From a virus, in the IMG/VR virus record IMGVR_UViG_3300031578_000123, positions 1-42,430 of that record: a stretch of 42,430 bases of DNA; one strand, given 5' to 3'. This document shows, in pieces, positions 9,529 through 35,458 of this stretch; within the stretch, counting starts at the first letter, position 1, and every line of letters starts with the position of its first letter. The notes beneath the pieces were generated by a model. The model ran no database searches. It was not told the DNA's origin and worked only from the letters and a program-made list of their open reading frames with translations. The position numbers and the translations under genes are program-made.

Positions 9529-10305
9529 TCACTCGCCTTGAATCATCCTTATGGCCTCTGCTATTTTATCATATGATGGGTCCTCAAACTCCATACCGAC
9601 CAGTGCAGTAGGCACGGATTGTTCATCAACCTTGCAGTAAAATTTACCATTCTGCTTGTAGGTATGCAGCATTAAATCCGTGGAATCACCAAGGGATGAG
9701 AAGCCTGACCTTTCCCTCTCTCCAGTTCTTGAGTCCTTAATCTCACCAGTCTTGAAGTCTGTCATTGGTTTGTACTCATCCCTTGAATGATGGGTTAACA
9801 CCAGGTTCTTGCCATGAGCCTTAGCTTGGTATATCAAACCTCTCATCCTGATGTTAGGTTCCCTGTATTCTATTGGAAGCAGACTCACCCTCAACCTGCT
9901 TTCACTACGAAGTAGGTTACCATTAGGGTCAAGCTGTATTTCCTGTTTCTCCTGTAAGTATGCTGTGCATATTGTTTCCCACAATAATGTACCTGTGTCT
10001 ATGACACCAGTAACCATTTCACTTTTCAGAAACCTTAGGTACTCAACCAAGAATTCATACCACAGTTCCTTAACTCCAGTAACAATCTTACTTTGCTTGA
10101 TGGTAACCTCATCTATGGTTCCCTGCATAGGTACTACGAATGGTTTAGTGGTGACAAAACCACCATCCGTGTCCTTCTTAAACCTCCATTTAGCCCTATC
10201 ATAACCACCCAAATCAAACTCAAGGTGTTGGATAGGTTTAGGAAATGTTAATGCTAAGGAGGACTTTCCCGACTTATCTTCCCCCCAAATGCCACAACAT
10301 ATCAT
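9529..10305 (-). CDS. Sak4-like (AAA_24) RecA-fold recombination ATPase
   Basis: N-terminal Walker A GIWGEDKSGKSSLALTFPKP and a size (258 aa) typical of AAA_24/Sak4. Confidence 0.8.
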   Translation of the reverse strand: MICCGIWGEDKSGKSSLALTFPKPIQHLEFDLGGYDRAKWRFKKDTDGGFVTTKPFVVPMQGTIDEVTIKQSKIVTGVKELWYEFLVEYLRFLKSEMVTGVIDTGTLLWETICTAYLQEKQEIQLDPNGNLLRSESRLRVSLLPIEYREPNIRMRGLIYQAKAHGKNLVLTHHSRDEYKPMTDFKTGEIKDSRTGERERSGFSSLGDSTDLMLHTYKQNGKFYCKVDEQSVPTALVGMEFEDPSYDKIAEAIRMIQGE

Positions 10306-10505
10306 TCCTTTACCTCTCCTAATCTATTCCTAAGCTCTTTAGCTTCATCACCATCCAATTCAACAACATACCCAGTATGCAGAAGGAATTGTATTTTGTC
10401 TTCCACAATATCTGTTCGGTATATGTCACCTTTAATAAAGGGTAATAGATATTCAATACCCTCTACATACATTTTGTGTTCGGTTCTGACATCATATATA
10501 TTCAT
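10302..10505 (-). CDS. Hypothetical protein
   Basis: 67-aa ORF, overlap-coupled on both sides. Confidence 0.6.
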   Translation of the reverse strand: MNIYDVRTEHKMYVEGIEYLLPFIKGDIYRTDIVEDKIQFLLHTGYVVELDGDEAKELRNRLGEVKE

Positions 10506-11344
10506 TCCTTCATCTCCTGTTCCACTATGCCTTTAGGACAATATTCCGCTACCTCACAATACCCTCTGCATCTATTGCCTCCCCAGCTTTCCTCATCATT
10601 GCATGGGTCAGGCAGGTATTGTGGATTCTCTTTATACTTTGATAATGCTATTAGGAGTTTATCCTTTTTCCAGTCAAAATAGTTAATAACTTCCTCATCA
10701 TCCAATCTCTTAATAGGCACCAGCTTTATGTTAAAGTCTATACCTCTAGTCCTTGCTATTTGCAATCCACCATCCCTCACTGTTACCTGCAACTGCATCT
10801 TACCTATCTTTAGTCCACGTCCTTCCAGCATCACCCTATACCTGTTCAATTGTAATTCCGATTCCCTTAGGTTAATGGTGCTTGGGTCAACGCTAAATTT
10901 AGCATCCTTGCCTTTACCTTCCTTGACTATACCAAGTGCCCTGACCATCCTATAACTACCCCATGTTTTGTAATCTATGAGGGTCCAGGCACCATCCTTT
11001 GGTTCCAGCAAATCAAATATATCATGTCCATCTGGACCAAGAGCAATCTCTGATGGGAGGTTTAGCTCCTTAGCTGCTTCCTCTAGCTTTTGGTGATGCC
11101 TTGTTCCTAGCAGGGCAAATGCTTTATTCTGTGGGTCTATGGTATAGTCCCTAGTTATCTTGAGGAATTCTATCATTGTTCCATTAAGCAACTGTGTGGT
11201 GCTTGGTACACCTGTCCATACCCTCTGCTCCGTGATGGCTTTTATTGTTGGTAATGTCAAGCACCTATCAGTGCAATGGTTTATGCAATCATCTATGAGG
11301 ATTGGGTCTGTTGCTTTTGGACATACTATCCACTTTGGTGGCAT
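10502..11344 (-). CDS. Cas4/RecB-like PD-(D/E)XK exonuclease with Fe-S cluster cysteines
   Basis: N-terminal Cys cluster (CPK...CINHCTDRC); LIDYKT (D-x-K) core; C-terminal CRGYCEVAEYC. Confidence 0.85.
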   Translation of the reverse strand: MPPKWIVCPKATDPILIDDCINHCTDRCLTLPTIKAITEQRVWTGVPSTTQLLNGTMIEFLKITRDYTIDPQNKAFALLGTRHHQKLEEAAKELNLPSEIALGPDGHDIFDLLEPKDGAWTLIDYKTWGSYRMVRALGIVKEGKGKDAKFSVDPSTINLRESELQLNRYRVMLEGRGLKIGKMQLQVTVRDGGLQIARTRGIDFNIKLVPIKRLDDEEVINYFDWKKDKLLIALSKYKENPQYLPDPCNDEESWGGNRCRGYCEVAEYCPKGIVEQEMKE

Positions 11345-11414: not shown

Positions 11415-11855
11415 TGTTACCTCCTCTTCTTTTAGTGAGCCTGAGCCTACACTCCAGCGTTGTCCGCCTAGAACCTCTCCACTCCATCCGCCGTCAACCT
11501 GCCTAGCAGGATTGGCCAATCTGTCCTTGGCCTAGGCTCACCTTGCTCACCAGCTAGTGCAAAGTTTGTTTCCATTGCACCTTATCCCTGCCCTGTCGCT
11601 TTGTGCAGTTCCTAAAGGAATGTGATAAAAACCAACTCATTTAACACTTCAGGCTTAGATAGGTTTTCTGCCTTGGCCTGACTTCAATGACCACAGACAA
11701 GTCCAGAGGGCAACTCCCTATCGGTAGCTGGCAAGCTCTTGCTGGCTTGGTCTGTTTAGGTCTGCCTGTCATCCTTTTGGCTAACCGATATGCCTATGGC
11801 TTTGGTCTTTTCCAACCTCTCAGGACACCAGCAAGTCTTATTTAATTGTCAATGT
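11415..11855 (-). ncRNA. Candidate structured non-coding RNA or long structured leader (unclassified)
   Basis: 441 nt with no credible ORF inside a tightly packed operon. GC is much higher than the flanks (59/100 by hand count for 11456-11555). Several perfect helices, e.g. 11533-11552 with 11433-11449, hairpins 11514-11532 and 11498-11510. Strand assumed from operon context. Confidence 0.5.
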
Positions 11856-12491
11856 TCAGGGGGTCAGGATGTGCCATATACCATTGGTATCCTTGCTTAT
11901 CTTACCAGTGGATTCCATCTCAGGAAGGAATACCCTGTGTAATATGTTATCAATTAGCTTGGCATCACCCTTTACCACCGCATTCTGGAATACTAACTGA
12001 TTCCATTCCTCCTCAGCTTTGCCATCAAGGAGTTCCAATGCTCTGGCTACGGCATCCATAGGGGAACTCTGTATTGCACCTTCACCAGCTAGTCCAATTA
12101 CCTCCCATGCTTCCCTAGCTGTGGCCTTCCCCTCATCCCTGTTCCACATCATGTGACCAGAAGTAAGCTTCATGTGGTGTATCATGTTGACAGTGTTCCT
12201 AATGTCCTGGTTCTCAGGGATAAGTTTGGCTAGGGAATCCGCATATACTGTCCATTGGCTTACCTTCCTTTTGTTAAGTGGGAAACTTAACTGAGCTATT
12301 GGGAATGGATATGGCTCCACACTTTCAATGACCTCTATATCATTGTAGTTGAGGTTAACATATGTTCTGGCTGGTGGGAATCTATCCACCAGTTCCGTTG
12401 TAAACCTCTCCAGCTTACCTTTGAATTCCCTTAGTGGACTCCTCTGATACCCTTCTATTAAACCTCTGATGCTAACTAATTCTTCTGACAT
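11856..12491 (-). CDS. Hypothetical protein (211 aa)
   Basis: Long ORF with GGAGGGTGAC RBS, in the early operon. Confidence 0.7.
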   Translation of the reverse strand: MSEELVSIRGLIEGYQRSPLREFKGKLERFTTELVDRFPPARTYVNLNYNDIEVIESVEPYPFPIAQLSFPLNKRKVSQWTVYADSLAKLIPENQDIRNTVNMIHHMKLTSGHMMWNRDEGKATAREAWEVIGLAGEGAIQSSPMDAVARALELLDGKAEEEWNQLVFQNAVVKGDAKLIDNILHRVFLPEMESTGKISKDTNGIWHILTP

Positions 12492-12552
12492 TTAGTCACC
12501 CTCCTTTTTGGTTATGTAATCCTTTTCCAGTGTGAGTTTCATGGTTACTCCT

Positions 12553-12846
12553 TTATTGTGCTCCTGACAACTTACTTATTATATCCTTTACCAAAATCTC
12601 GTAACATGATTTTATGGTATCCTGGGTTCGTAGTATAATTCGTATGGCATAATCAATGGGGTTGGATTCTGGAGCCTTAACTTCACCTACACGGTCTGGT
12701 TCTTTCTGTTTGATGAATGTTTCCTGCATCTTCATCTTCAGGTTTGATGCTAATTCATCGAGTCTTGCTATTTCACTTAATAGGCATACTTCCTTGGGAC
12801 TTCCTTCTTGCGTAGGAAATTCAGGTGTGCTGTCTGTATTGTCCAT
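12553..12846 (-). CDS. Hypothetical protein
   Basis: 97-aa ORF with AGGAGGTATAA RBS. Confidence 0.6.
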   Translation of the reverse strand: MDNTDSTPEFPTQEGSPKEVCLLSEIARLDELASNLKMKMQETFIKQKEPDRVGEVKAPESNPIDYAIRIILRTQDTIKSCYEILVKDIISKLSGAQ

Positions 12847-12861
12847 TTATACCTCCTTTTA

Positions 12862-13056
12862 TTACATATCTATGATACGCACCGAACATGGTGAAAAACT
12901 ATCCTCGGTCATGGTCCCATTCTCTACCTCCTTAGGACAAGCATCAAGCAGGGTGTTTTTAATCCATTCTTTAACAGGTATGCTCTCCTGCAATGCTGCG
13001 TATTTTATGGCTATCTTTTCCTGGGAATCTGTGTCAATTATGATATGCCAGCCCAT
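12862..13056 (-). CDS. Small protein, possibly ribbon-helix-helix-like regulator
   Basis: First gene after a consensus promoter. HIIIDTDSQEKIAIKYAALQESIPVKEWIKNTLLDA has a beta-strand/helix/helix pattern typical of RHH (weak, by eye). Confidence 0.5.
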   Translation of the reverse strand: MGWHIIIDTDSQEKIAIKYAALQESIPVKEWIKNTLLDACPKEVENGTMTEDSFSPCSVRIIDM

Positions 13057-13088
13057 GTATCACTTCCCCCACTTGTGGGTGTATTATC

Positions 13089-13118
13089 ATTATAGCTCCT
13101 GACATAGCAGCTTGTCAA
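13089..13118 (-). promoter_or_regulatory. Consensus sigma-70/sigma-A promoter TTGACA-N18-TATAAT (leftward)
   Basis: -35 at 13118..13113 and -10 at 13094..13089 on the minus strand, about 30 nt upstream of the 13056 start. Confidence 0.7.
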
Positions 13119-13119
13119 G

Positions 13120-13162
13120 TTGACATAATCCTAACTGATTGACATAATCCATTTAACATAAT
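13120..13162 (+). repeat. Decamer array: TTGACATAAT x2 (13120, 13139) plus TTAACATAAT (13153)
   Basis: Direct reading. The first copy is back-to-back with the minus-strand -35 (TGTCAAgTTGACA palindrome 13113-13125). Confidence 0.9.
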
Positions 13163-13167
13163 ACTTC

Positions 13168-13181
13168 AGAACATTTGTTCT
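13168..13181. promoter_or_regulatory. Perfect 14-bp palindromic box AGAACATTTGTTCT (GAAC-N4-GTTC, Cheo/LexA-box-like)
   Basis: Direct reading; matches the Gram-positive SOS-box core GAAC-N4-GTTC. Confidence 0.6.
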
Positions 13182-13182
13182 G

Positions 13183-13790
13183 GTATACTTAATTATAACC
13201 ATATTACTGTAATAACATATTATACTATACACTGCCATTTGTTTGGATATTCCTTAATCTTAATTAACCAATCATCCAATAATACCATATCCTTAGTCTT
13301 TATCAATGTCCTATCTGATATACCTTTTATCTCAATGCCTTTATCTCTGGCTTTATATAAGGATATAATATATAGGATGGAATTTTCTACTATATCCTCA
13401 TATAAGGCAAACACAATAAATGGTGGTATTCCCGTCTTGATGTGCCATCTAATTAACCATTCCTTATCATATGTATCTATGTAAGGCAGGTATCTTTGAG
13501 ATAATTTCCTAGCTTTTATTTCCAACCAAAATCTATGCCCTTCTCCAATAACATATTTATCCACATGAAGATATTTATAATCTTTACCCTTATGAGGGTA
13601 TCTGATAGGTAATGGGTGGCTACCAACATCCCAAACTTCATAACCAGCTTTGGTGAATATCTTGCTGACCAAATCCTCAGCCTTGAGGCCTATTTCCAAA
13701 TAATCCTGAAACTCCATAAGCGTATTATAACCCTCCTAAATGTATACTCTTATTATCTATAAACAGTAATATGGCTATAATTAAGTATAC
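13183..13790. mobile_element. 608-bp AT-rich cassette bounded by 28-bp inverted repeats (27/28) carrying one PD-(D/E)XK-like ORF
   Basis: 13183-13210 gtatacttaattataAccatattactgt is the reverse complement of 13763-13790 with 1 mismatch. The interior is visibly more AT-rich than the genome. Confidence 0.5.
13220..13717 (-). CDS. PD-(D/E)XK nuclease-like protein (Hjc/endonuclease-like core)
   Basis: 165 aa; GLKAEDLVSKIFTKAGYEV...HVDKYVIGEGHRFWLEIKARK fits an E...D...E-x-K nuclease core; AGGAGGG RBS. Confidence 0.6.
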   Translation of the reverse strand: MEFQDYLEIGLKAEDLVSKIFTKAGYEVWDVGSHPLPIRYPHKGKDYKYLHVDKYVIGEGHRFWLEIKARKLSQRYLPYIDTYDKEWLIRWHIKTGIPPFIVFALYEDIVENSILYIISLYKARDKGIEIKGISDRTLIKTKDMVLLDDWLIKIKEYPNKWQCIV

Positions 13791-13841
13791 ACTAATATAC
13801 ACTAACTCTATGCCCTTAATACTGTTTATAGATACATATAC

Positions 13842-14126
13842 CTATGGCTTGTCCTTTACACCCAAGATAGCTTTTAGCTTATCTATACTATCATCCAAAG
13901 CGGAGTGCCAAGGTGTTTTACCTCCAGTTATTCGCACCCCGCATAGTTGGGCATGAATTGTTGTGAGCAAAGGTATTACATTCCTTAACATAGCATCAGC
14001 ACCATCTTCATAGGCAGTATACTTACCATCAGATACCTGCCTAAAGTGGGCATCAGCCAAGTCCACAAAAGGTGTATCTTGCATGGGAGTATGGGGATTA
14101 TTCCATCCTTCTTTAGGTCTCCACAT
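13842..14126 (-). CDS. Hypothetical protein
   Basis: 94-aa ORF with GGAGGTGAAC RBS. Confidence 0.6.
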   Translation of the reverse strand: MWRPKEGWNNPHTPMQDTPFVDLADAHFRQVSDGKYTAYEDGADAMLRNVIPLLTTIHAQLCGVRITGGKTPWHSALDDSIDKLKAILGVKDKP

Positions 14127-14262
14127 TGTTCACCTCCTTCTGATTAGTGTAAAATTCCTTATCCTTGTCGGCATCCTGTTTTAGCTTCCAGTATAGAAGT
14201 TCATCCCATCCTAGAATCTCCCATTTCTCAGTTTCTTGGTGTTCCTCTATATCAGGCATCAT
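14113..14262 (-). CDS. Hypothetical small protein (start MMPDIEE...)
   Basis: Internal ATG at 14262 preceded by GGAGGAGGAAA; the track ORF extends to 14301. Confidence 0.5.
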   Translation of the reverse strand: MMPDIEEHQETEKWEILGWDELLYWKLKQDADKDKEFYTNQKEVNNVET

Positions 14263-14378
14263 TTTCCTCCTCCGTTTATACTCATGTACATACCCCAGCA
14301 ACCACTACAAACATAATCTCCGTTGTATCCTACCTTTGGATTTGTTAGCATGACATCCTCTCTGCTTTTCCAAGCCAT
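14259..14378 (-). CDS. Micro-ORF (39 aa, MAWKSREDVMLTNPKVGYNGDYVCSGCWG...)
   Basis: ATGA-coupled to the downstream gene; below the track cutoff. Confidence 0.35.
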   Translation of the reverse strand: MAWKSREDVMLTNPKVGYNGDYVCSGCWGMYMSINGGGK

Positions 14379-14388
14379 ACCACATATC

Positions 14389-14562
14389 CTATGATGGTAT
14401 CTTACCTTGCTTTAGGTCCTCAATACAGGATTCCCATGCCCATATTTCATCAGGGGAAATAGATTTCTCCAGCCAAAATCCTGCTTCTTTTATTCCCGCC
14501 TTCTTGCCATCATCATATGCAATCCTGTAGGCTTTTTTTGCTGTTATATTAGCTTGTTTCAT
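14389..14562 (-). CDS. Small hypothetical protein (57 aa, MKQANITAKKAYRIAYDDGKK...)
   Basis: AAGGAGAGAAAGGACA RBS before the ATG at 14562; below the track cutoff. Confidence 0.45.
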   Translation of the reverse strand: MKQANITAKKAYRIAYDDGKKAGIKEAGFWLEKSISPDEIWAWESCIEDLKQGKIPS

Positions 14563-14577
14563 TGTCCTTTCTCTCCT

Positions 14578-15321
14578 TTATGGTATCACTCTAAATGTTA
14601 AATTACTCCTGGTAACCTGTATCTTCATTGACTTTATCTCCTCCTCGGCATGGCGAACCTTCTCAAAGGATAGAATGACCTCACCATCTTTATTGCTATT
14701 GACGGTTCTTATGCTGGTATCACACCAATCCTGCAGGATGCTGGAACCAAACATATCATCAGCACTGGAATATATCTGACCACCAACAACCATTGGCTTT
14801 CGGTCATGGTGTACTAATACGATGGCTACCTTGTACCTGTCTATCATTTGGTTGAGCCAGTCAGTTAGTTTCCTAATGTCATACTCATCCACTATTTTAC
14901 CAGACATGATGGAGTATATTGGGTCTATGATTAGGACTTGTGGGTGGGTTTCTTGTAGCTCCTTCTCGATGTCTGCTCCACCATAAGCTTTATCCAGTTT
15001 GATGTAGTGTTCGGTACGGAAATATAGGTTATCTGGGTACAGTTTGTTGCCATCAACAAATTTCCTAGTGCGTTTCTGGAACAATGCTTTTGGAATCTCA
15101 GTTTGCAGGATATACACGGATGATGGTACAGTTTTGTAGCCAAACCATGGGTTCCCTGTGGCTAGGGTGAAAGCCATGTGTACCACCAACATGGACTTCC
15201 ATGTTTGCCATCTACCAAACAGTATCATCTTGGTCTGTGGTAGCAGGATACCTTGGTCAATGATGTACTGTTGGTGTGGTGGCTGCCATGATAATAATTC
15301 CTTTAGGTTTTGGGCTTTCAT
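14578..15321 (-). CDS. RepA/AAA_25-like RecA-fold ATPase (replicative helicase-like) with atypical Walker A
   Basis: LFGRWQTWKSMLVVHMAFTLATG (Walker A position), VLIIDPIYS (Walker B), AIVLVHHDRKP; the layout is typical of AAA_25. Confidence 0.75.
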   Translation of the reverse strand: MKAQNLKELLSWQPPHQQYIIDQGILLPQTKMILFGRWQTWKSMLVVHMAFTLATGNPWFGYKTVPSSVYILQTEIPKALFQKRTRKFVDGNKLYPDNLYFRTEHYIKLDKAYGGADIEKELQETHPQVLIIDPIYSIMSGKIVDEYDIRKLTDWLNQMIDRYKVAIVLVHHDRKPMVVGGQIYSSADDMFGSSILQDWCDTSIRTVNSNKDGEVILSFEKVRHAEEEIKSMKIQVTRSNLTFRVIP

Positions 15322-15695
15322 TTACCATCGCCACCGTGTCCTTCCAGACCCAATTTCTTCTTCCACTTAGACACAGTGCTGGCATCTACCCTTAGCTTTT
15401 CAGATACCACAGATAGACTGCCATTTACCAATAGTTCCTCCAGCGGTTTGTTGTACTCCCGTTCCAAAGACCTCATTAGGGGAGTTTTCAGTGGATTAGG
15501 CTCACCTAAAGACCTCTGTTCGTTGGAAATACTTTCTAATATTTCCTCTTTGAATGAAGAAAAATGACCACATCTACGATTATTACCCAGCTTCCTTGCT
15601 GGTATCCATATTCCCTTTGGTTTGCAGTAATACCTTTTGCCCTTTGGTGTTAGGGACAGAATGATATTACGGCAGTTGGAGCATCTAACTCTCAT
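15318..15695 (-). CDS. DNA-binding protein: N-terminal Cys-rich region plus C-terminal HTH
   Basis: CSNC...C...C at the N-terminus; LSVVSEKLRVDASTVSKWKKKLGL is HTH-like. Confidence 0.65.
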   Translation of the reverse strand: MRVRCSNCRNIILSLTPKGKRYYCKPKGIWIPARKLGNNRRCGHFSSFKEEILESISNEQRSLGEPNPLKTPLMRSLEREYNKPLEELLVNGSLSVVSEKLRVDASTVSKWKKKLGLEGHGGDGK

Positions 15696-20682: not shown

Positions 20683-20696
20683 TAGACCAGATGTTC

Positions 20697-20710
20697 GGCT
20701 CATATGTTCT
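20697..20710. promoter_or_regulatory. Box GGCTCATATGTTCT (minus strand AGAACATATGAGCC), just upstream of the early-left -35
   Basis: Direct reading; same family as 13168, 20799, 20900, 21587 and 21644. Confidence 0.5.
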
Positions 20711-20733
20711 AATCCCCCAGGGGGCGGCTTCAC

Positions 20734-20791
20734 TTGACATAATACCACCGATTGACATAATGTTGCTTGACATAATCCTAGTTGACATAAT
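20734..20791 (+). repeat. Decamer array: TTGACATAAT x4 (20734, 20752, 20767, 20782); degenerate TTACATAAT at 20829
   Basis: Direct reading; spacings of 18, 15 and 15 bp. Confidence 0.95.
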
Positions 20792-20798
20792 ACCAACC

Positions 20799-20825
20799 AG
20801 AACATATGTTTCGCACTGGTGTTCT
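20799..20825. promoter_or_regulatory. Two abutting boxes AGAACATATGTTTC and CGCACTGGTGTTCT
   Basis: Direct reading. The first overlaps a possible -10 (TATGTT, 20805-20810) 17 nt after the TTGACA at 20782. Confidence 0.45.
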
Positions 20826-20899
20826 AGGTTACATAATGTTCCCGAAAATGGCGGTTTTGTTGCCCCTTGCTGAATTTTCTCTAGTGACCAGCTATGGTT

Positions 20900-20913
20900 A
20901 GCACATTTGTTCT
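20900..20913. promoter_or_regulatory. Box AGCACATTTGTTCT lying 1 bp from the -35 of the moron promoter
   Basis: Direct reading; near-inverted copy of the box at 21587-21600. Confidence 0.5.
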
Positions 20914-21586: not shown

Positions 21587-21600
21587 AGAACATTTGTGCT
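21587..21600. promoter_or_regulatory. Box AGAACATTTGTGCT
   Basis: Direct reading; near-inverted partner of 20900-20913. Confidence 0.5.
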
Positions 21601-21624
21601 ACTTCTCGCCACCAGCCACAATAG

Positions 21625-21657
21625 TTGACATAATACCAGCATTAGAACATTTGAGCT
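21625..21657 (+). promoter_or_regulatory. Single TTGACATAAT (21625-21634) followed by box AGAACATTTGAGCT (21644-21657)
   Basis: Direct reading; same decamer-then-box order as at 13.1 kb and 20.8 kb. Confidence 0.5.
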
Positions 21658-22682: not shown

Positions 22683-22748
22683 ATGACATAACACTCAATG
22701 GTTGACATAATACTAAATATCCGAGTTGACATAATGACTTGACATAAG
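22683..22748 (+). repeat. Decamer array: ATGACATAAC (22683), TTGACATAAT (22702, 22726), TTGACATAAG (22739)
   Basis: Direct reading. The first copy lies back-to-back with the leftward -35. Confidence 0.9.
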
Positions 22749-35434: not shown

Positions 35435-35458
35435 TTGACATAATGATATTGACATAAA
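35435..35458 (+). repeat. Decamer pair TTGACATAAT (35435) and TTGACATAAA (35449)
   Basis: Direct reading. Confidence 0.9.

What the first reader, a model, noticed from the sequence alone, without database searches (positions are those of the whole stretch)
13183..13833. AT-rich PD-(D/E)XK nuclease-like gene bracketed by 28-bp inverted repeats (cassette or mobile unit)
13183-13210 (GTATACTTAATTATAACCATATTACTGT) is the reverse complement of 13763-13790 with one mismatch (27/28). The pair encloses exactly one ORF (13220..13717, 165 aa, D...E-x-K nuclease-like core), whose DNA is clearly more AT-rich than its neighbours.

The right-hand spacer is itself repeat-dense:
- A 14-bp inverted repeat: ATCTATAAACAGTA at 13755-13768 with TACTGTTTATAGAT at 13820-13833.
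- A tandem TATACACTAA x2 at 13786-13805.

The left repeat directly abuts the perfect AGAACATTTGTTCT palindrome (13168-13181) and a decamer array.

A single-gene unit with terminal inverted repeats and foreign composition suggests a small selfish/homing nuclease cassette or another recently acquired accessory gene (for example counter-defence or superinfection exclusion). Alternatively, the repeats are paired operators that loop out the gene. I know of no described element with this architecture.
Basis: partly seen in the sequence, partly recalled or inferred. Interest (0 to 1): 0.7.

Follow-up and report, generated by a model that had tools for sequence, protein, structure and literature searches.

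The report
Nuclease gene nested in phage hairpin
A fast-evolving accessory gene for an Hjc-like (Holliday-junction-resolvase-fold) nuclease sits inside the loop of an intergenic hairpin conserved across a small group of uncultivated phages, so the "terminal inverted repeats" are the two halves of that hairpin, not transposon ends.

Summary
The 28-nt inverted repeat (27/28) brackets one 165-aa ORF and is the strongest inverted repeat in the window.

The ORF belongs to a tiny family (8 clusters among 1.84 billion representatives). Its AlphaFold model (pLDDT 81) matches archaeal Hjc resolvases, and E14/D53/E66/K68 align with the Hjc catalytic residues.

All seven lineages with readable flanks carry the repeat. 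The outer ~14 nt are conserved. The inner 12-26 nt differ between lineages but stay complementary: 94% paired vs 74% in shuffles, and 14 of 26 pairs change on both sides.

Three ORF-less relatives keep homologous arms only ~70-80 nt apart, forming a significant local hairpin at the same place. That place is the end of the ATPase operon, just upstream of an operator/promoter hub. There are no target-site duplications, no second locus, and no recombinase among the ORFs tested.

Wobble pairs (7 vs 1) and fold energies favour pairing on the sense strand. My best reading is a conserved transcript-level stem, possibly an RNase III-type processing site, with a swappable nuclease gene in its loop. A homing-type selfish nuclease remains a live rival. 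Function is unproven and interest is moderate.

The parts
13763..13790 (-). Upstream arm in transcript orientation: 5'-GTATACTTAATTATAGCCATATTACTGT-3' on the minus strand. Its inner end lies 45 nt before the ATG.
   Evidence: The outer 14 nt are conserved in all lineages and the inner part is lineage-specific.
13220..13717 (-). 165-aa Hjc-like PD-(D/E)XK nuclease-fold gene with E14, D53, E66 and K68. It is the loop cargo of the stem.
   Evidence: ORF. (tiny family). (motif conservation in 6 of 9 members). (alignment to Hjc catalytic residues, E=0.93, not significant). (model pLDDT 81, pTM 0.81). (Foldseek best matches are Hjc resolvases, E 2.7e-5, TM 0.64-0.68).
13183..13210 (-). Downstream arm: 5'-ACAGTAATATGGTTATAATTAAGTATAC-3' on the minus strand. 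It begins 9 nt after the stop codon. Its single mismatch with the upstream arm is a G.U pair on the sense strand.
13809..13834 (-). Third, degenerate arm copy that resembles the downstream arm. It pairs locally with the upstream arm to form a hairpin spanning 13754-13834, a structure that competes with the long-range stem.
   Evidence: I2: 26 nt, 85%.: -30.9 kcal/mol, z -4.6 on the sense strand.
13168..13181 (.). Perfect palindrome AGAACATTTGTTCT (GAAC-N4-GTTC) abutting the downstream arm. It is a genome-wide operator-like motif and not part of the cassette.
   Evidence: 9 matches vs 2.3 expected, also at 20684-20913 and 21587-21657. Equivalent palindromes follow the arm in every relative.
13120..13162 (-). 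Three ATTATGT(C/T)AA decamers (TTGACATAAT on the plus strand). This regulatory array also occurs at four other intergenic hubs.
   Evidence: 20 matches vs 5.6 expected, with clusters at 20734-20791, 21625, 22702-22748 and 35435-35458.
13089..13118 (-). Consensus sigma-70-type promoter TTGACA-18-TATAAT (12/12) that starts the next operon. This places the stem at an operon boundary.
   Evidence: The promoter is conserved in L001, L011, L013, L014 and L031.
14578..15321 (-). AAA_25 (RecA/DnaB-like) ATPase gene. It is the conserved upstream anchor of the locus and was used to find relatives.

Best explanation
The two arms are the halves of an intergenic hairpin that is conserved across this phage clade. 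The hairpin lies at the end of the ATPase/replication-gene operon, immediately upstream of an operator/promoter hub. In the window and six other lineages, a fast-evolving accessory Hjc-type nuclease gene with its own start codon sits in the loop. The arms are then 470-580 nt apart instead of about 70-80 nt.

Shown:
- The arms are homologous in ORF-bearing and ORF-less phages.
- Their outer ~14 nt are conserved.
- The inner 12-26 nt change between lineages but remain complementary.
- The unit made of inner arms plus ORF differs on near-identical backbones, with the break at the inner/outer junction of the arm.

Inferred:
- The arms pair in the sense-strand transcript and form a 26-41-bp duplex that loops out the whole ORF.
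- A duplex of that length is the size cut by RNase III, so the stem most likely defines or processes RNA ends at the operon boundary. The nuclease gene then rides as a passenger of the upstream operon without destroying the hairpin.
- The cassette is gained, lost or swapped by recombination at the conserved outer motif, not by transposition.

The protein is probably a structure-specific DNA nuclease or DNA binder of the replication/recombination module. The repeat persists in two lineages whose catalytic residues have decayed, so keeping the repeat does not depend on catalysis.

How sure I am of each part: the anatomy (a clade-wide hairpin with the gene nested in it, not a transposon) about 0.85; pairing at the RNA level about 0.5; RNase III involvement about 0.3.
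For: - The repeat flanks the ORF in 7 of 7 lineages with both flanks visible.
- Inner positions show within-lineage complementarity of 12.1/14 versus 5.4/14 between lineages.
- Formal pair count: 94% of cells paired vs 73.9 +/- 2.3% in shuffles (0/500). 14 of 26 pairs change on both sides. Slid controls give 31-44%.
- ORF-less relatives keep homologous arms as a local hairpin at the same position. L031: 17/18, -35.6 kcal/mol, z -5.7. L035: 29-nt arms, -38.8 kcal/mol, z -4.6. L001/L033: -31.2 kcal/mol, z -2.3 to -2.6. The arms align without internal gaps across all ten lineages.
- Strand asymmetry: optimal duplexes use 7 G.U pairs on the sense strand vs 1 on the antisense (p=0.035). The sense duplex is more stable in 5 of 7 ORF-bearing lineages. 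In all 3 ORF-less hairpins the sense strand is favoured by both energy and z-score.
- L009 and L015 are 100% identical from the outer 20 nt of the downstream arm onward and 93% identical over ~1 kb. Their ORFs are only 42% identical, and the inner part of each downstream arm matches its own upstream arm.
- There are no TSDs, no other loci and no intrinsic terminator.
- Long-range RNase III duplexes spanning hundreds of nt are documented in B. subtilis mRNAs (PMC11780869).
- The repeat is retained in L007 and L011, whose proteins lack the D/ExK residues.
Against: - There is no expression or cleavage data of any kind. RNase III involvement is pure inference.
- The strand asymmetry rests on about 8 informative pairs that are not phylogenetically independent. 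The sense strand also gives lower energies in shuffles, and for the window's own local hairpin the z-score favours the antisense strand.
- G.T tolerance would equally fit a sense-strand ssDNA hairpin.
- If only pairing mattered, the outer 14 nt should also drift with compensation, but they are conserved. This points to an additional sequence-specific reader (a protein) or to recombination at that motif.
- In the window, a local hairpin that uses the same upstream arm forms first during transcription and could pre-empt the long-range stem.
- L012, an ORF-less relative of L009, has no significant hairpin.
- Concerted evolution or repeated replacement of whole cassettes could mimic covariation.
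Confidence: 0.5

Rival explanations
1. Site-specific selfish (homing-type) nuclease cassette. The Hjc-like enzyme made by an ORF-bearing phage cuts the ORF-less allele in a co-infecting relative. The target would be either the near-palindromic site formed where the two outer motifs lie close together or its extruded hairpin/cruciform. Recombinational repair then copies the cassette in. Occupied alleles are immune because the half-sites are about 500 nt apart. This reading is compatible with the arms also pairing in RNA.
For: - The protein has a nuclease fold of junction-resolvase type.
- The gene is sporadically present among close relatives at one fixed intergenic site: W vs L031 (ATPase 91%) and vs L001 (87%); L009/L015 vs L012.
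- The ORF diverges much faster than the backbone.
- Catalytic residues are degenerate in 3 of 9 members, as expected from a homing-gene invasion-decay cycle.
- The composition is AT-rich in the window.
- The downstream-arm motif is partly degenerate in ORF-less L001 and L012, as resistant alleles would be.
- Precedents: F-CphI, a free-standing phage homing endonuclease built on the Endo VII resolvase motif (PMC6083498), and the Hjc-related sequence-specific enzyme BpuJI (PMC1874659).
Against: - No case was found of the same ORF allele on divergent backbones. What is seen is the opposite: different alleles on the same backbone.
- Homing gives no reason to keep the arms complementary for as long as it took the ORFs to diverge to 29-55% identity, nor to keep them in lineages with dead catalytic sites.
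- ORF-less L031 retains an almost perfect hairpin (17/18), so it is not a 'resistant' allele.
- Cleavage is untested.
Confidence: 0.2
2. The repeat is a double-stranded-DNA element and not an RNA stem. In this reading the near-palindromic outer motifs (TATAMTTAAKTATA) are paired binding sites for a phage or host protein. That protein could be a repressor that loops out the gene, the nuclease itself acting as an autoregulator, or a replication-origin or recombination protein.
For: - The outer 14 nt are conserved in sequence on both sides in all lineages (11/12 or better).
- Each outer motif is itself 12/14 palindromic (by inspection of the motif).
- The locus adjoins operator-like palindromes and decamer arrays that recur at five regulatory hubs.
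- It lies in the replication module next to a helicase-like ATPase.
- The motif resembles the -10/start region of this phage's promoters.
Against: - The inner 12-26 nt vary freely but stay complementary, which a conserved binding protein does not explain.
- Wobble and energy asymmetry favour one strand.
- The exact motif occurs nowhere else in the window despite five regulatory hubs.
- No -35 partner and no promoter call lie in the arms.
Confidence: 0.15
3. Autonomous miniature transposon. The repeats would be terminal inverted repeats recognised by the encoded nuclease acting as a transposase, as proposed for MPMEs or for IR-flanked restriction-modification units.
For: It is a single-gene unit with 26-41-nt inverted repeats whose inner parts co-vary with the ORF allele. 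[quoted passage not shown]
Against: - No target-site duplication in 7 lineages.
- All 9 family lineages lie at one locus.
- No copies in IMG/VR, 185,579 species genomes or GenBank phages.
- No near-identical dispersed copies.
- The 14 motif hits in viral contigs lack a partner arm.
- The arms exist without the gene.
- The repeat is kept where catalytic residues are lost.
Confidence: 0.03
4. Invertible (phase-variable) segment. A site-specific recombinase would flip the ORF between the repeats.
For: Inverted repeats of 26-41 nt with palindromic outer sites resemble hix/gix-type crossover sites (from my own knowledge of those systems).
Against: - The ORF has the same orientation relative to both neighbours in all 7 lineages and in all sister contigs.
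- No recombinase was found among the ORFs tested.
- Inversion would not explain the local hairpins in ORF-less genomes.
Confidence: 0.03

Closest known systems
Archaeal Hjc Holliday-junction resolvases (PD-(D/E)XK; PDB 2wcw, 2eo0, 1gef, 1hh1)
   Same: They are the best structural matches (Foldseek E 2.7e-5, probability 1.0, TM 0.64-0.68 on the target). The secondary-structure order is the same. The four Hjc catalytic residues align with E14/D53/E66/K68.
   Different: There is no significant sequence similarity (E=0.93) and no Pfam or PHROG hit. The protein is about 40 aa longer, with a conserved C-terminal part (KTxIPPFIVF, YIIS, LLDDWL..KW) that is more conserved than the catalytic half. Three of nine members lack the catalytic residues. 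The family occurs in bacterial-type tailed phages. Activity is untested.
Free-standing homing endonuclease genes of phages, e.g. F-CphI of cyanophage S-PM2 (Endo VII motif; PMC6083498)
   Same: A small nuclease gene of junction-resolvase ancestry sits alone in an intergenic site, is sporadic among relatives and evolves fast.
   Different: There is no evidence of cleavage or super-Mendelian spread. The gene is bracketed by a conserved covarying stem that also exists without it. The fold family differs (Hjc-type rather than His-Me/Endo VII).
Homing-endonuclease ORFs nested in peripheral loops of group I introns (own knowledge)
   Same: An ORF is looped out between two complementary segments whose pairing has to be preserved, so the host RNA structure survives the insertion.
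   Different: There is no intron or ribozyme here: no Rfam hit, and the arms directly abut a stop codon and an operator. The host structure is a simple intergenic hairpin.
Long-range RNase III processing duplexes (rRNA operon stems; B. subtilis mRNAs, PMC11780869)
   Same: Intramolecular duplexes of 20 bp or more pair across hundreds of nucleotides and enclose a functional RNA or coding region.
   Different: Cleavage is unproven here. The enclosed unit is a swappable accessory gene. The outer part of the stem is conserved in sequence.
Mycobacteriophage mobile elements MPME1/2 (PMC3029335) and IR-flanked restriction-modification units (PMC2853133)
   Same: They are compact units of one or a few genes bounded by inverted repeats, in phage genomes or carrying nuclease genes.
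   Different: Those elements occur as near-identical copies at different sites with a 6-bp addition or 8-bp target duplication, and their repeats are absent from empty sites. Here there is one locus, no duplication, deep divergence, and the repeats persist in ORF-less genomes.

Membership tests
PD-(D/E)XK nucleases, Hjc-like branch | alpha-beta-beta-beta-alpha-beta core fold | tested here: met
   The AF2 model (pLDDT 81, pTM 0.81) has the order H3-23, E27-30, E51-58, E61-71, H82-95, E99-106. The best Foldseek matches are Hjc structures: E 2.7e-5, TM 0.64-0.68.
PD-(D/E)XK nucleases, Hjc-like branch | Catalytic E ... D ... E-x-K residues in register | tested here: met
   E14/D53/E66/K68 align with Pfu Hjc E9/D33/E46/K48. 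The motif is conserved in 6 of 9 family members and degenerate in P0003, P0008 and P0009.
PD-(D/E)XK nucleases, Hjc-like branch | Significant sequence match to a curated family model | tested here: not met
   No Pfam or PHROG family matched at E<=0.1 / 0.01. The PDB profile search gives Hjc at E=0.93 only.
PD-(D/E)XK nucleases, Hjc-like branch | Mg-dependent cleavage of four-way junctions by a homodimer | not testable with these tools
   Needs purified protein and synthetic junctions.
Free-standing homing endonuclease gene | Sporadic presence at one intergenic site among close relatives | tested here: met
   Present in W, L009, L007, L011, L013, L014 and L015. Absent in L031 (ATPase 91%), L001/L033 (86-87%) and L035 (65%). 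Absent between the arms in L012.
Free-standing homing endonuclease gene | Same gene allele on diverged backbones, or co-conversion of flanks | tested here: inconclusive
   Only the reverse is seen: 42%-identical alleles on 93-100%-identical flanks. The sample is small.
Free-standing homing endonuclease gene | Enzyme cuts the gene-less allele, and the gene-bearing allele is immune | not testable with these tools
   Needs biochemistry or a co-infection assay.
TIR transposon / MPME-like element | Target-site duplication or added bases at the ends | tested here: not met
   Flanks just outside the arms share nothing in any of the 7 lineages.
TIR transposon / MPME-like element | Copies at different genomic sites, and repeats absent from empty sites | tested here: not met
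   All members lie at one locus. No copies were found elsewhere. The arms are present in ORF-less genomes.
Invertible DNA segment (Hin/Gin/Cin-type) | Both orientations observed, with an adjacent site-specific recombinase | tested here: not met
   Only one orientation is seen in all lineages and contigs. No recombinase domain was found in the ORFs tested. Reads were not available.
Long-range RNA processing stem (RNase III-type substrate) | Duplex of about 20 bp or more, maintained by compensatory change | tested here: met
   Stems are 26-41 bp and -22 to -45 kcal/mol. 14 of 26 pairs change on both sides, 0/500 shuffles reach this.
Long-range RNA processing stem (RNase III-type substrate) | Pairing specific to the transcribed strand (G.U tolerated, A.C not) | tested here: inconclusive
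   7 vs 1 wobble pairs, p=0.035. The sense strand is favoured in 5/7 + 3/3 folds. However, composition contributes, one z-score goes the other way, and the events are not independent.
Long-range RNA processing stem (RNase III-type substrate) | Staggered cleavage in both arms in vivo | not testable with these tools
   Needs RNA end-mapping with and without RNase III.
Intrinsic terminator | G+C-rich stem followed by a U tract | tested here: not met
   No terminator-like site in 12800-14300. The downstream arm is followed by CAGAACAAAUG with no U run.

The most novel reading that the evidence does not exclude
A structure-specific homing system. An Hjc-type junction-resolving enzyme is encoded inside the loop of a palindrome. 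It cleaves the hairpin or cruciform that the same palindrome forms in gene-less co-infecting phages, and repair then copies the gene in. Occupied alleles are immune simply because a 500-nt loop prevents extrusion. This would be a homing mechanism that reads DNA shape instead of sequence, and it would explain why the gene family exists only at this one hairpin.
Probability: 0.1. Interest if true: 0.85.

Novelty: new variant of a known kind. Interest (0 to 1): 0.5.

Why it matters
- It shows how an accessory (possibly selfish) nuclease gene can settle in a phage operon without breaking a conserved structural signal: it sits in the loop of that signal. This is the same logic as homing-endonuclease ORFs in intron loops, applied here to a plain intergenic hairpin.
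- If the stem works in RNA, it would be a clear natural example of an mRNA duplex spanning about 550 nt that is kept by compensatory evolution around a whole gene. That is directly testable with RNase III mutants.
- It adds a new, very narrow, fast-evolving Hjc-like protein family in tailed phages, in which catalytic residues decay while the C-terminal half stays conserved.
- It gives a practical caution for genome scans: a gene flanked by inverted repeats is not by itself evidence of a transposon, and gene-less relatives have to be checked for the repeats.

Tried and rejected
Searches that found nothing:
- blastn (distant mode) of 11800-15400 against GenBank phages gave no match.
- Pfam and PHROGs on the ORF gave no family.
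- Protein-pattern scans for the ORF family in IMG/VR and in 185,579 species genomes (one search failed for lack of a conserved stretch) found no relatives. The one metagenome scan added only the already-known L009 lineage.
- Rfam on the locus gave only sub-threshold generic hairpin (miRNA) hits. Rfam and ARAGORN on the L035 non-coding stretch gave nothing.

Ideas tested and dropped:
- Arm motif as a widespread element end: the 18-mer has 14 hits in viral contigs, but none has a partner arm or any tblastx similarity to the window, so they are chance matches.
- Target-site duplications: none.
- Promoter inside the arms: the outer motif contains TATAAT and resembles the -10/start region of the 35.4-kb promoter, but no -35 partner exists and the scan calls nothing there.
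- Intrinsic terminator: none.
- SNP-level compensatory changes among near-identical sister contigs: no variation in the arms, so uninformative.
- L012 hairpin: not significant.
- Direction of history (insertion vs deletion) from L001: the left side is clearly homologous to the window upstream region (score 57 vs 29 +/- 5), but the right side is only marginal (29 vs 22 +/- 3.5). No remnant of the family was found by tblastn in the ORF-less loci L031-L038 (L001 and L012 were not scanned), so the direction stays unresolved.

Technical dead ends:
- The first AF2 run with 3 sequences gave pLDDT 51 and was unusable. It was superseded by the 9-sequence run.
- The resemblance of ATTATGTTAAAT to the XerD arm of dif is treated as coincidence, because the decamer is a promoter-linked repeat at five hubs.
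Full report
**1. The observation**

Positions 13183-13210 and 13763-13790 are reverse complements at 27 of 28 positions. The 28-mer occurs only at these two places even with three mismatches allowed, against none in 100 shuffles. It is the top-ranked inverted repeat in the whole window.

The pair encloses only one ORF that I accept as a gene, 13220..13717 on the minus strand, 165 aa. GC drops to 0.31-0.34 there against 0.39-0.43 around it.

**2. Setting**

The window is a tailed phage: terminase-like, major head and tail proteins are present. Every accepted gene from about 5.6 to 19.4 kb lies on the minus strand and forms a replication/recombination module. It contains a family A DNA polymerase, a methylase, AAA_24, an exonuclease and an AAA_25 ATPase.

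Read in transcript orientation, the locus runs as follows:
- ATPase, then three small genes.
- Upstream arm.
- The 165-aa ORF.
- Downstream arm.
- Palindrome AGAACAAATGTTCT.
- Three ATTATGT(C/T)AA decamers.
- A perfect TTGACA-18-TATAAT promoter (12/12).
- The next operon.

The palindrome and the decamer are genome-wide motifs that cluster at five intergenic hubs. They belong to the phage's regulatory system and not to the cassette. No integrase, recombinase, transposase or phage RNA polymerase was found among the ORFs tested.

**3. The protein**

Pfam and PHROGs give nothing. The family is extremely narrow. A search of 5.8 billion proteins finds three hits including the query itself. An exhaustive profile search of 1.84 billion representatives finds eight clusters. 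Nothing turns up in GenBank phages, IMG/VR or 185,579 species genomes.

With the nine-sequence alignment, AlphaFold gives a confident model (pLDDT 81, pTM 0.81). Its best matches in the PDB are archaeal Hjc Holliday-junction resolvases (E 2.7e-5, probability 1.0, TM 0.64-0.68). These are followed by a fusellovirus nuclease, SPARDA nuclease domains and restriction enzymes. Viral predicted structures give the same picture.

A profile search of PDB sequences also puts Hjc first, though not significantly (E 0.93). It aligns the four Hjc catalytic residues with E14, D53, E66 and K68.

The D and E-x-K residues are kept in six of nine family members and lost in three. The most conserved residues lie in the C-terminal half. 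So the 'PD-(D/E)XK nuclease-like' call is right, and it can be sharpened to Hjc-like. Catalysis may not be the conserved function in every lineage.

**4. The repeat is conserved and covaries**

I recovered the genomic context of every family member. In all seven lineages where both flanks are on the contig, the ORF is bracketed by an inverted repeat of 26-41 nt. The match ranges from 23/27 to 28/29. The inner end of the upstream arm lies 8-45 nt before the ATG. The downstream arm begins 3-17 nt after the stop codon.

The outer 12-14 nt (TATAyTwAATTA.. / ..TAATTAAGTATA) are nearly invariant. The inner 12-26 nt cannot be aligned between lineages, yet they stay complementary within each one. Complementarity is 12.1/14 within lineages, against 5.4/14 (maximum 9) when arms of different lineages are combined.

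On an alignment anchored at the outer ends, 94% of cells pair, against 73.9 +/- 2.3% in shuffles (0 of 500). Fourteen of 26 pairs change on both sides. Sliding the partner by one to three columns drops pairing to 31-44%.

The repeat is kept in L007 and L011, whose proteins have lost the catalytic residues.

**5. It is not a transposon**

- No target-site duplication exists in any lineage. The right end always abuts the same backbone sequence (CAG/CAA plus palindrome), while the left neighbour varies.
- All family members lie at this one locus.
- An 18-mer of the arm has 14 exact matches in IMG/VR, but none has a partner arm or any relation to this phage.
- The ORF has the same orientation in every lineage and contig, so there is no sign of inversion either.

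**6. The repeat exists without the gene**

This is the decisive result.

- L031 (ATPase 91% identical) lacks the ORF. It carries CTGATATACTGTATTATA and TATAATATAGTATATCAG (17/18, the mismatch being G.U on the sense strand) 70 nt apart. These are followed by the same palindrome, decamer array and promoter.
- L001 and L033/L034 (86-87%) have the same layout with a more degenerate stem.
- L035-L038 (65%) have 29-nt arms 79 nt apart, about 35 nt after the ATPase stop and directly before the decamers and promoter.

The arms of all ten lineages align without internal gaps over the outer ~15 nt. The ORF-less elements fold into significant hairpins: L031 -35.6 kcal/mol (z -5.7), L035 -38.8 (z -4.6), L033 -31.2 (z -2.6).

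So the inverted repeat is a backbone element of the clade, sitting at an operon boundary. The nuclease gene lies in its loop in some lineages.

**7. The cassette behaves as a swappable unit**

L009 and L015 share a backbone: 94% identity at the ATPase end and 93% over ~1 kb downstream. They are 100% identical from the outer 20 nt of the downstream arm onward. Their ORFs are only 42% identical, and the inner part of each downstream arm matches its own upstream arm.

L012 has the same backbone but shows only a degenerate arm pair with no ORF between the arms. It also has a divergent paralogue (P0009) directly after the ATPase. The 5' and 3' ends of that paralogue seem to survive as a tiny ORF in L009.

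Between the window and L008 the ATPase is 80% identical and the ORF 55%. The break between 'cassette' and 'backbone' therefore lies inside the arm, at the junction of its variable and conserved parts. Whether L001 arose by deletion or the window by insertion could not be resolved.

**8. Which strand, which molecule**

The window's only mismatch is G.U on the sense strand and A.C on the other. Over the seven ORF-bearing stems, the optimal duplexes use seven wobble pairs on the sense strand and one on the antisense (one-sided p = 0.035, not corrected for shared ancestry). The sense duplex is more stable in five of seven.

In all three ORF-less hairpins the sense strand is favoured by both energy and z-score.

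There are caveats. Sense-strand shuffles also fold somewhat better. For the window's local hairpin the z-score favours the antisense strand. G.T tolerance would also fit single-stranded DNA of the same strand. I take this as moderate evidence for pairing in the transcript.

No intrinsic terminator is predicted and no Rfam family matches.

**9. Most likely mechanism**

The stem is a conserved RNA element at the 3' end of the ATPase operon. Its length (18-29 bp locally, 26-41 bp when it spans the ORF) is that of RNase III substrates. Long-range RNase III duplexes across hundreds of nucleotides are documented in B. subtilis mRNAs (PMC11780869).

A gene placed in the loop is transcribed from the upstream operon and leaves the stem intact. 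Homing-endonuclease ORFs sit in intron loops for the same reason (my own knowledge).

Shown: the anatomy, the conservation, the covariation, the ORF-less hairpins and the cassette boundary. Inferred: RNA-level pairing, RNase III involvement and the passenger logic.

Not explained by pairing alone: the sequence conservation of the outer motif. This suggests a protein reader or a preferred recombination site.

In the window, a third arm copy (13809-13834) forms a strong local hairpin with the upstream arm (z -4.6). This hairpin could compete with the long-range stem.

**10. Rivals**

- Homing-type selfish nuclease. It fits the sporadic distribution, fast evolution, decaying active sites and nuclease fold. 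Its closest precedent is F-CphI (PMC6083498). It does not explain the long-term maintenance of complementarity, and it has no direct support.
- dsDNA protein-binding pair or origin element. It fits the conserved palindromic outer motif and the regulatory neighbourhood, but not the covarying inner arms.
- Transposon and invertible-switch readings. Both fail their defining tests.

**11. Verdict**

This is a real, conserved and previously undescribed arrangement. It is best filed as a new variant of known themes: accessory or selfish nuclease genes in phage intergenic sites, and ORFs nested in conserved RNA stems. Its 'mobile unit with terminal inverted repeats' interpretation is only partly supported. 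Interest is moderate (0.5). The structure-specific homing reading would be much more interesting, but it is unlikely on present evidence (about 0.1).

Noticed in passing
window 13120-13162, 20734-20791, 21625-21634, 22702-22748, 35435-35458: The decamer TTGACATAAT (ATTATGTCAA on the minus strand) occurs 20 times against 5.6 expected. It forms tandem arrays spaced 14-24 nt apart at five intergenic hubs, always in the same orientation. Most arrays lie just upstream of plus-strand genes and are combined with TTGACA-N17/18-TAyAAT promoters. It looks like a phage-wide promoter/operator code. Relatives carry variants (ATTATGTAAA x5 in L031).
   Followed up: partly
window 13168-13181, 20684-20697, 20799-20812, 20900-20913, 21587-21600, 21644-21657: The palindrome AGAACAnnTGTTCT (GAAC-N4-GTTC, the form of the Gram-positive LexA/Cheo box) occurs 9 times against 2.3 expected. 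It co-occurs with the decamer arrays next to promoters. It could be the operator of a phage repressor or a host LexA site, which would hint at the host phylum. It is not strictly conserved in relatives (GCACAA.., ATACATTTGTGC).
   Followed up: partly
window 13120-13148 (+): The decamer array creates a near-consensus plus-strand promoter (TTGACA-17-CATAAT with TG, 11/12). It points into the cassette antisense to the nuclease ORF, in a region where all genes are on the minus strand. An antisense transcript across the arm and ORF is possible. This feature is not general to the cassette, because several lineages (for example L009, L011, L013-L015) lack the decamer array.
   Followed up: no
L012 105-542; L009 466-530: A divergent paralogue of the nuclease family (P0009, 29% identity, C-terminus altered) sits directly after the ATPase and outside the arms in L012. 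In the closely related L009 lineage only its first and last codons seem to survive, as a 21-codon ORF (MITTPQYIKYWIKIGYNPLG). This suggests an internal deletion of a second family copy.
   Followed up: partly
L035 4440-5095 (also L036-L038): About 650 nt with no called gene lie between the promoter hub and the next gene. The stretch is G+C-richer and contains two tRNA-like T-arm motifs (GGTTCGAATCCCTAGC, GGTGCAAATCCCTAGC). ARAGORN finds no tRNA and Rfam finds no family. It may be an undescribed structured RNA or decayed tRNA genes.
   Followed up: partly
L009 720, 767, 1109 vs L005/L006/L008: The three SNPs inside the nuclease ORF among near-identical sister contigs are all G/A. By inspection of the codons all three change the amino acid (S/N, D/N, D/N). 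The flanking DNA shows ordinary mixed substitutions. This may be a small hint of diversifying change in the protein.
   Followed up: no
window 13131-13238 (-): A 35-codon ORF overlaps the downstream arm and the last codons of the nuclease gene. It is called as a gene in two sister assemblies (L003, L004) but not in L002. It is made of arm and palindrome sequence and is probably a gene-caller artefact.
   Followed up: no
window 10502-11344 (-): A 280-aa protein matches a PHROG exonuclease family and ends in a cysteine cluster (CRGYCEVAEYCP), as in Cas4/RecB-type PD-(D/E)XK nucleases. Together with the AAA_24 protein (9529-10305), it suggests a phage recombination module into which an Hjc-like resolvase would fit functionally.
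   Followed up: no
L031 3132-3638: In the closest ORF-less relative, the gene immediately downstream of the shared promoter is an unrelated 168-aa ORF, not the 64-aa gene found in the window. The first position of the downstream operon is therefore also variable.
   Followed up: no
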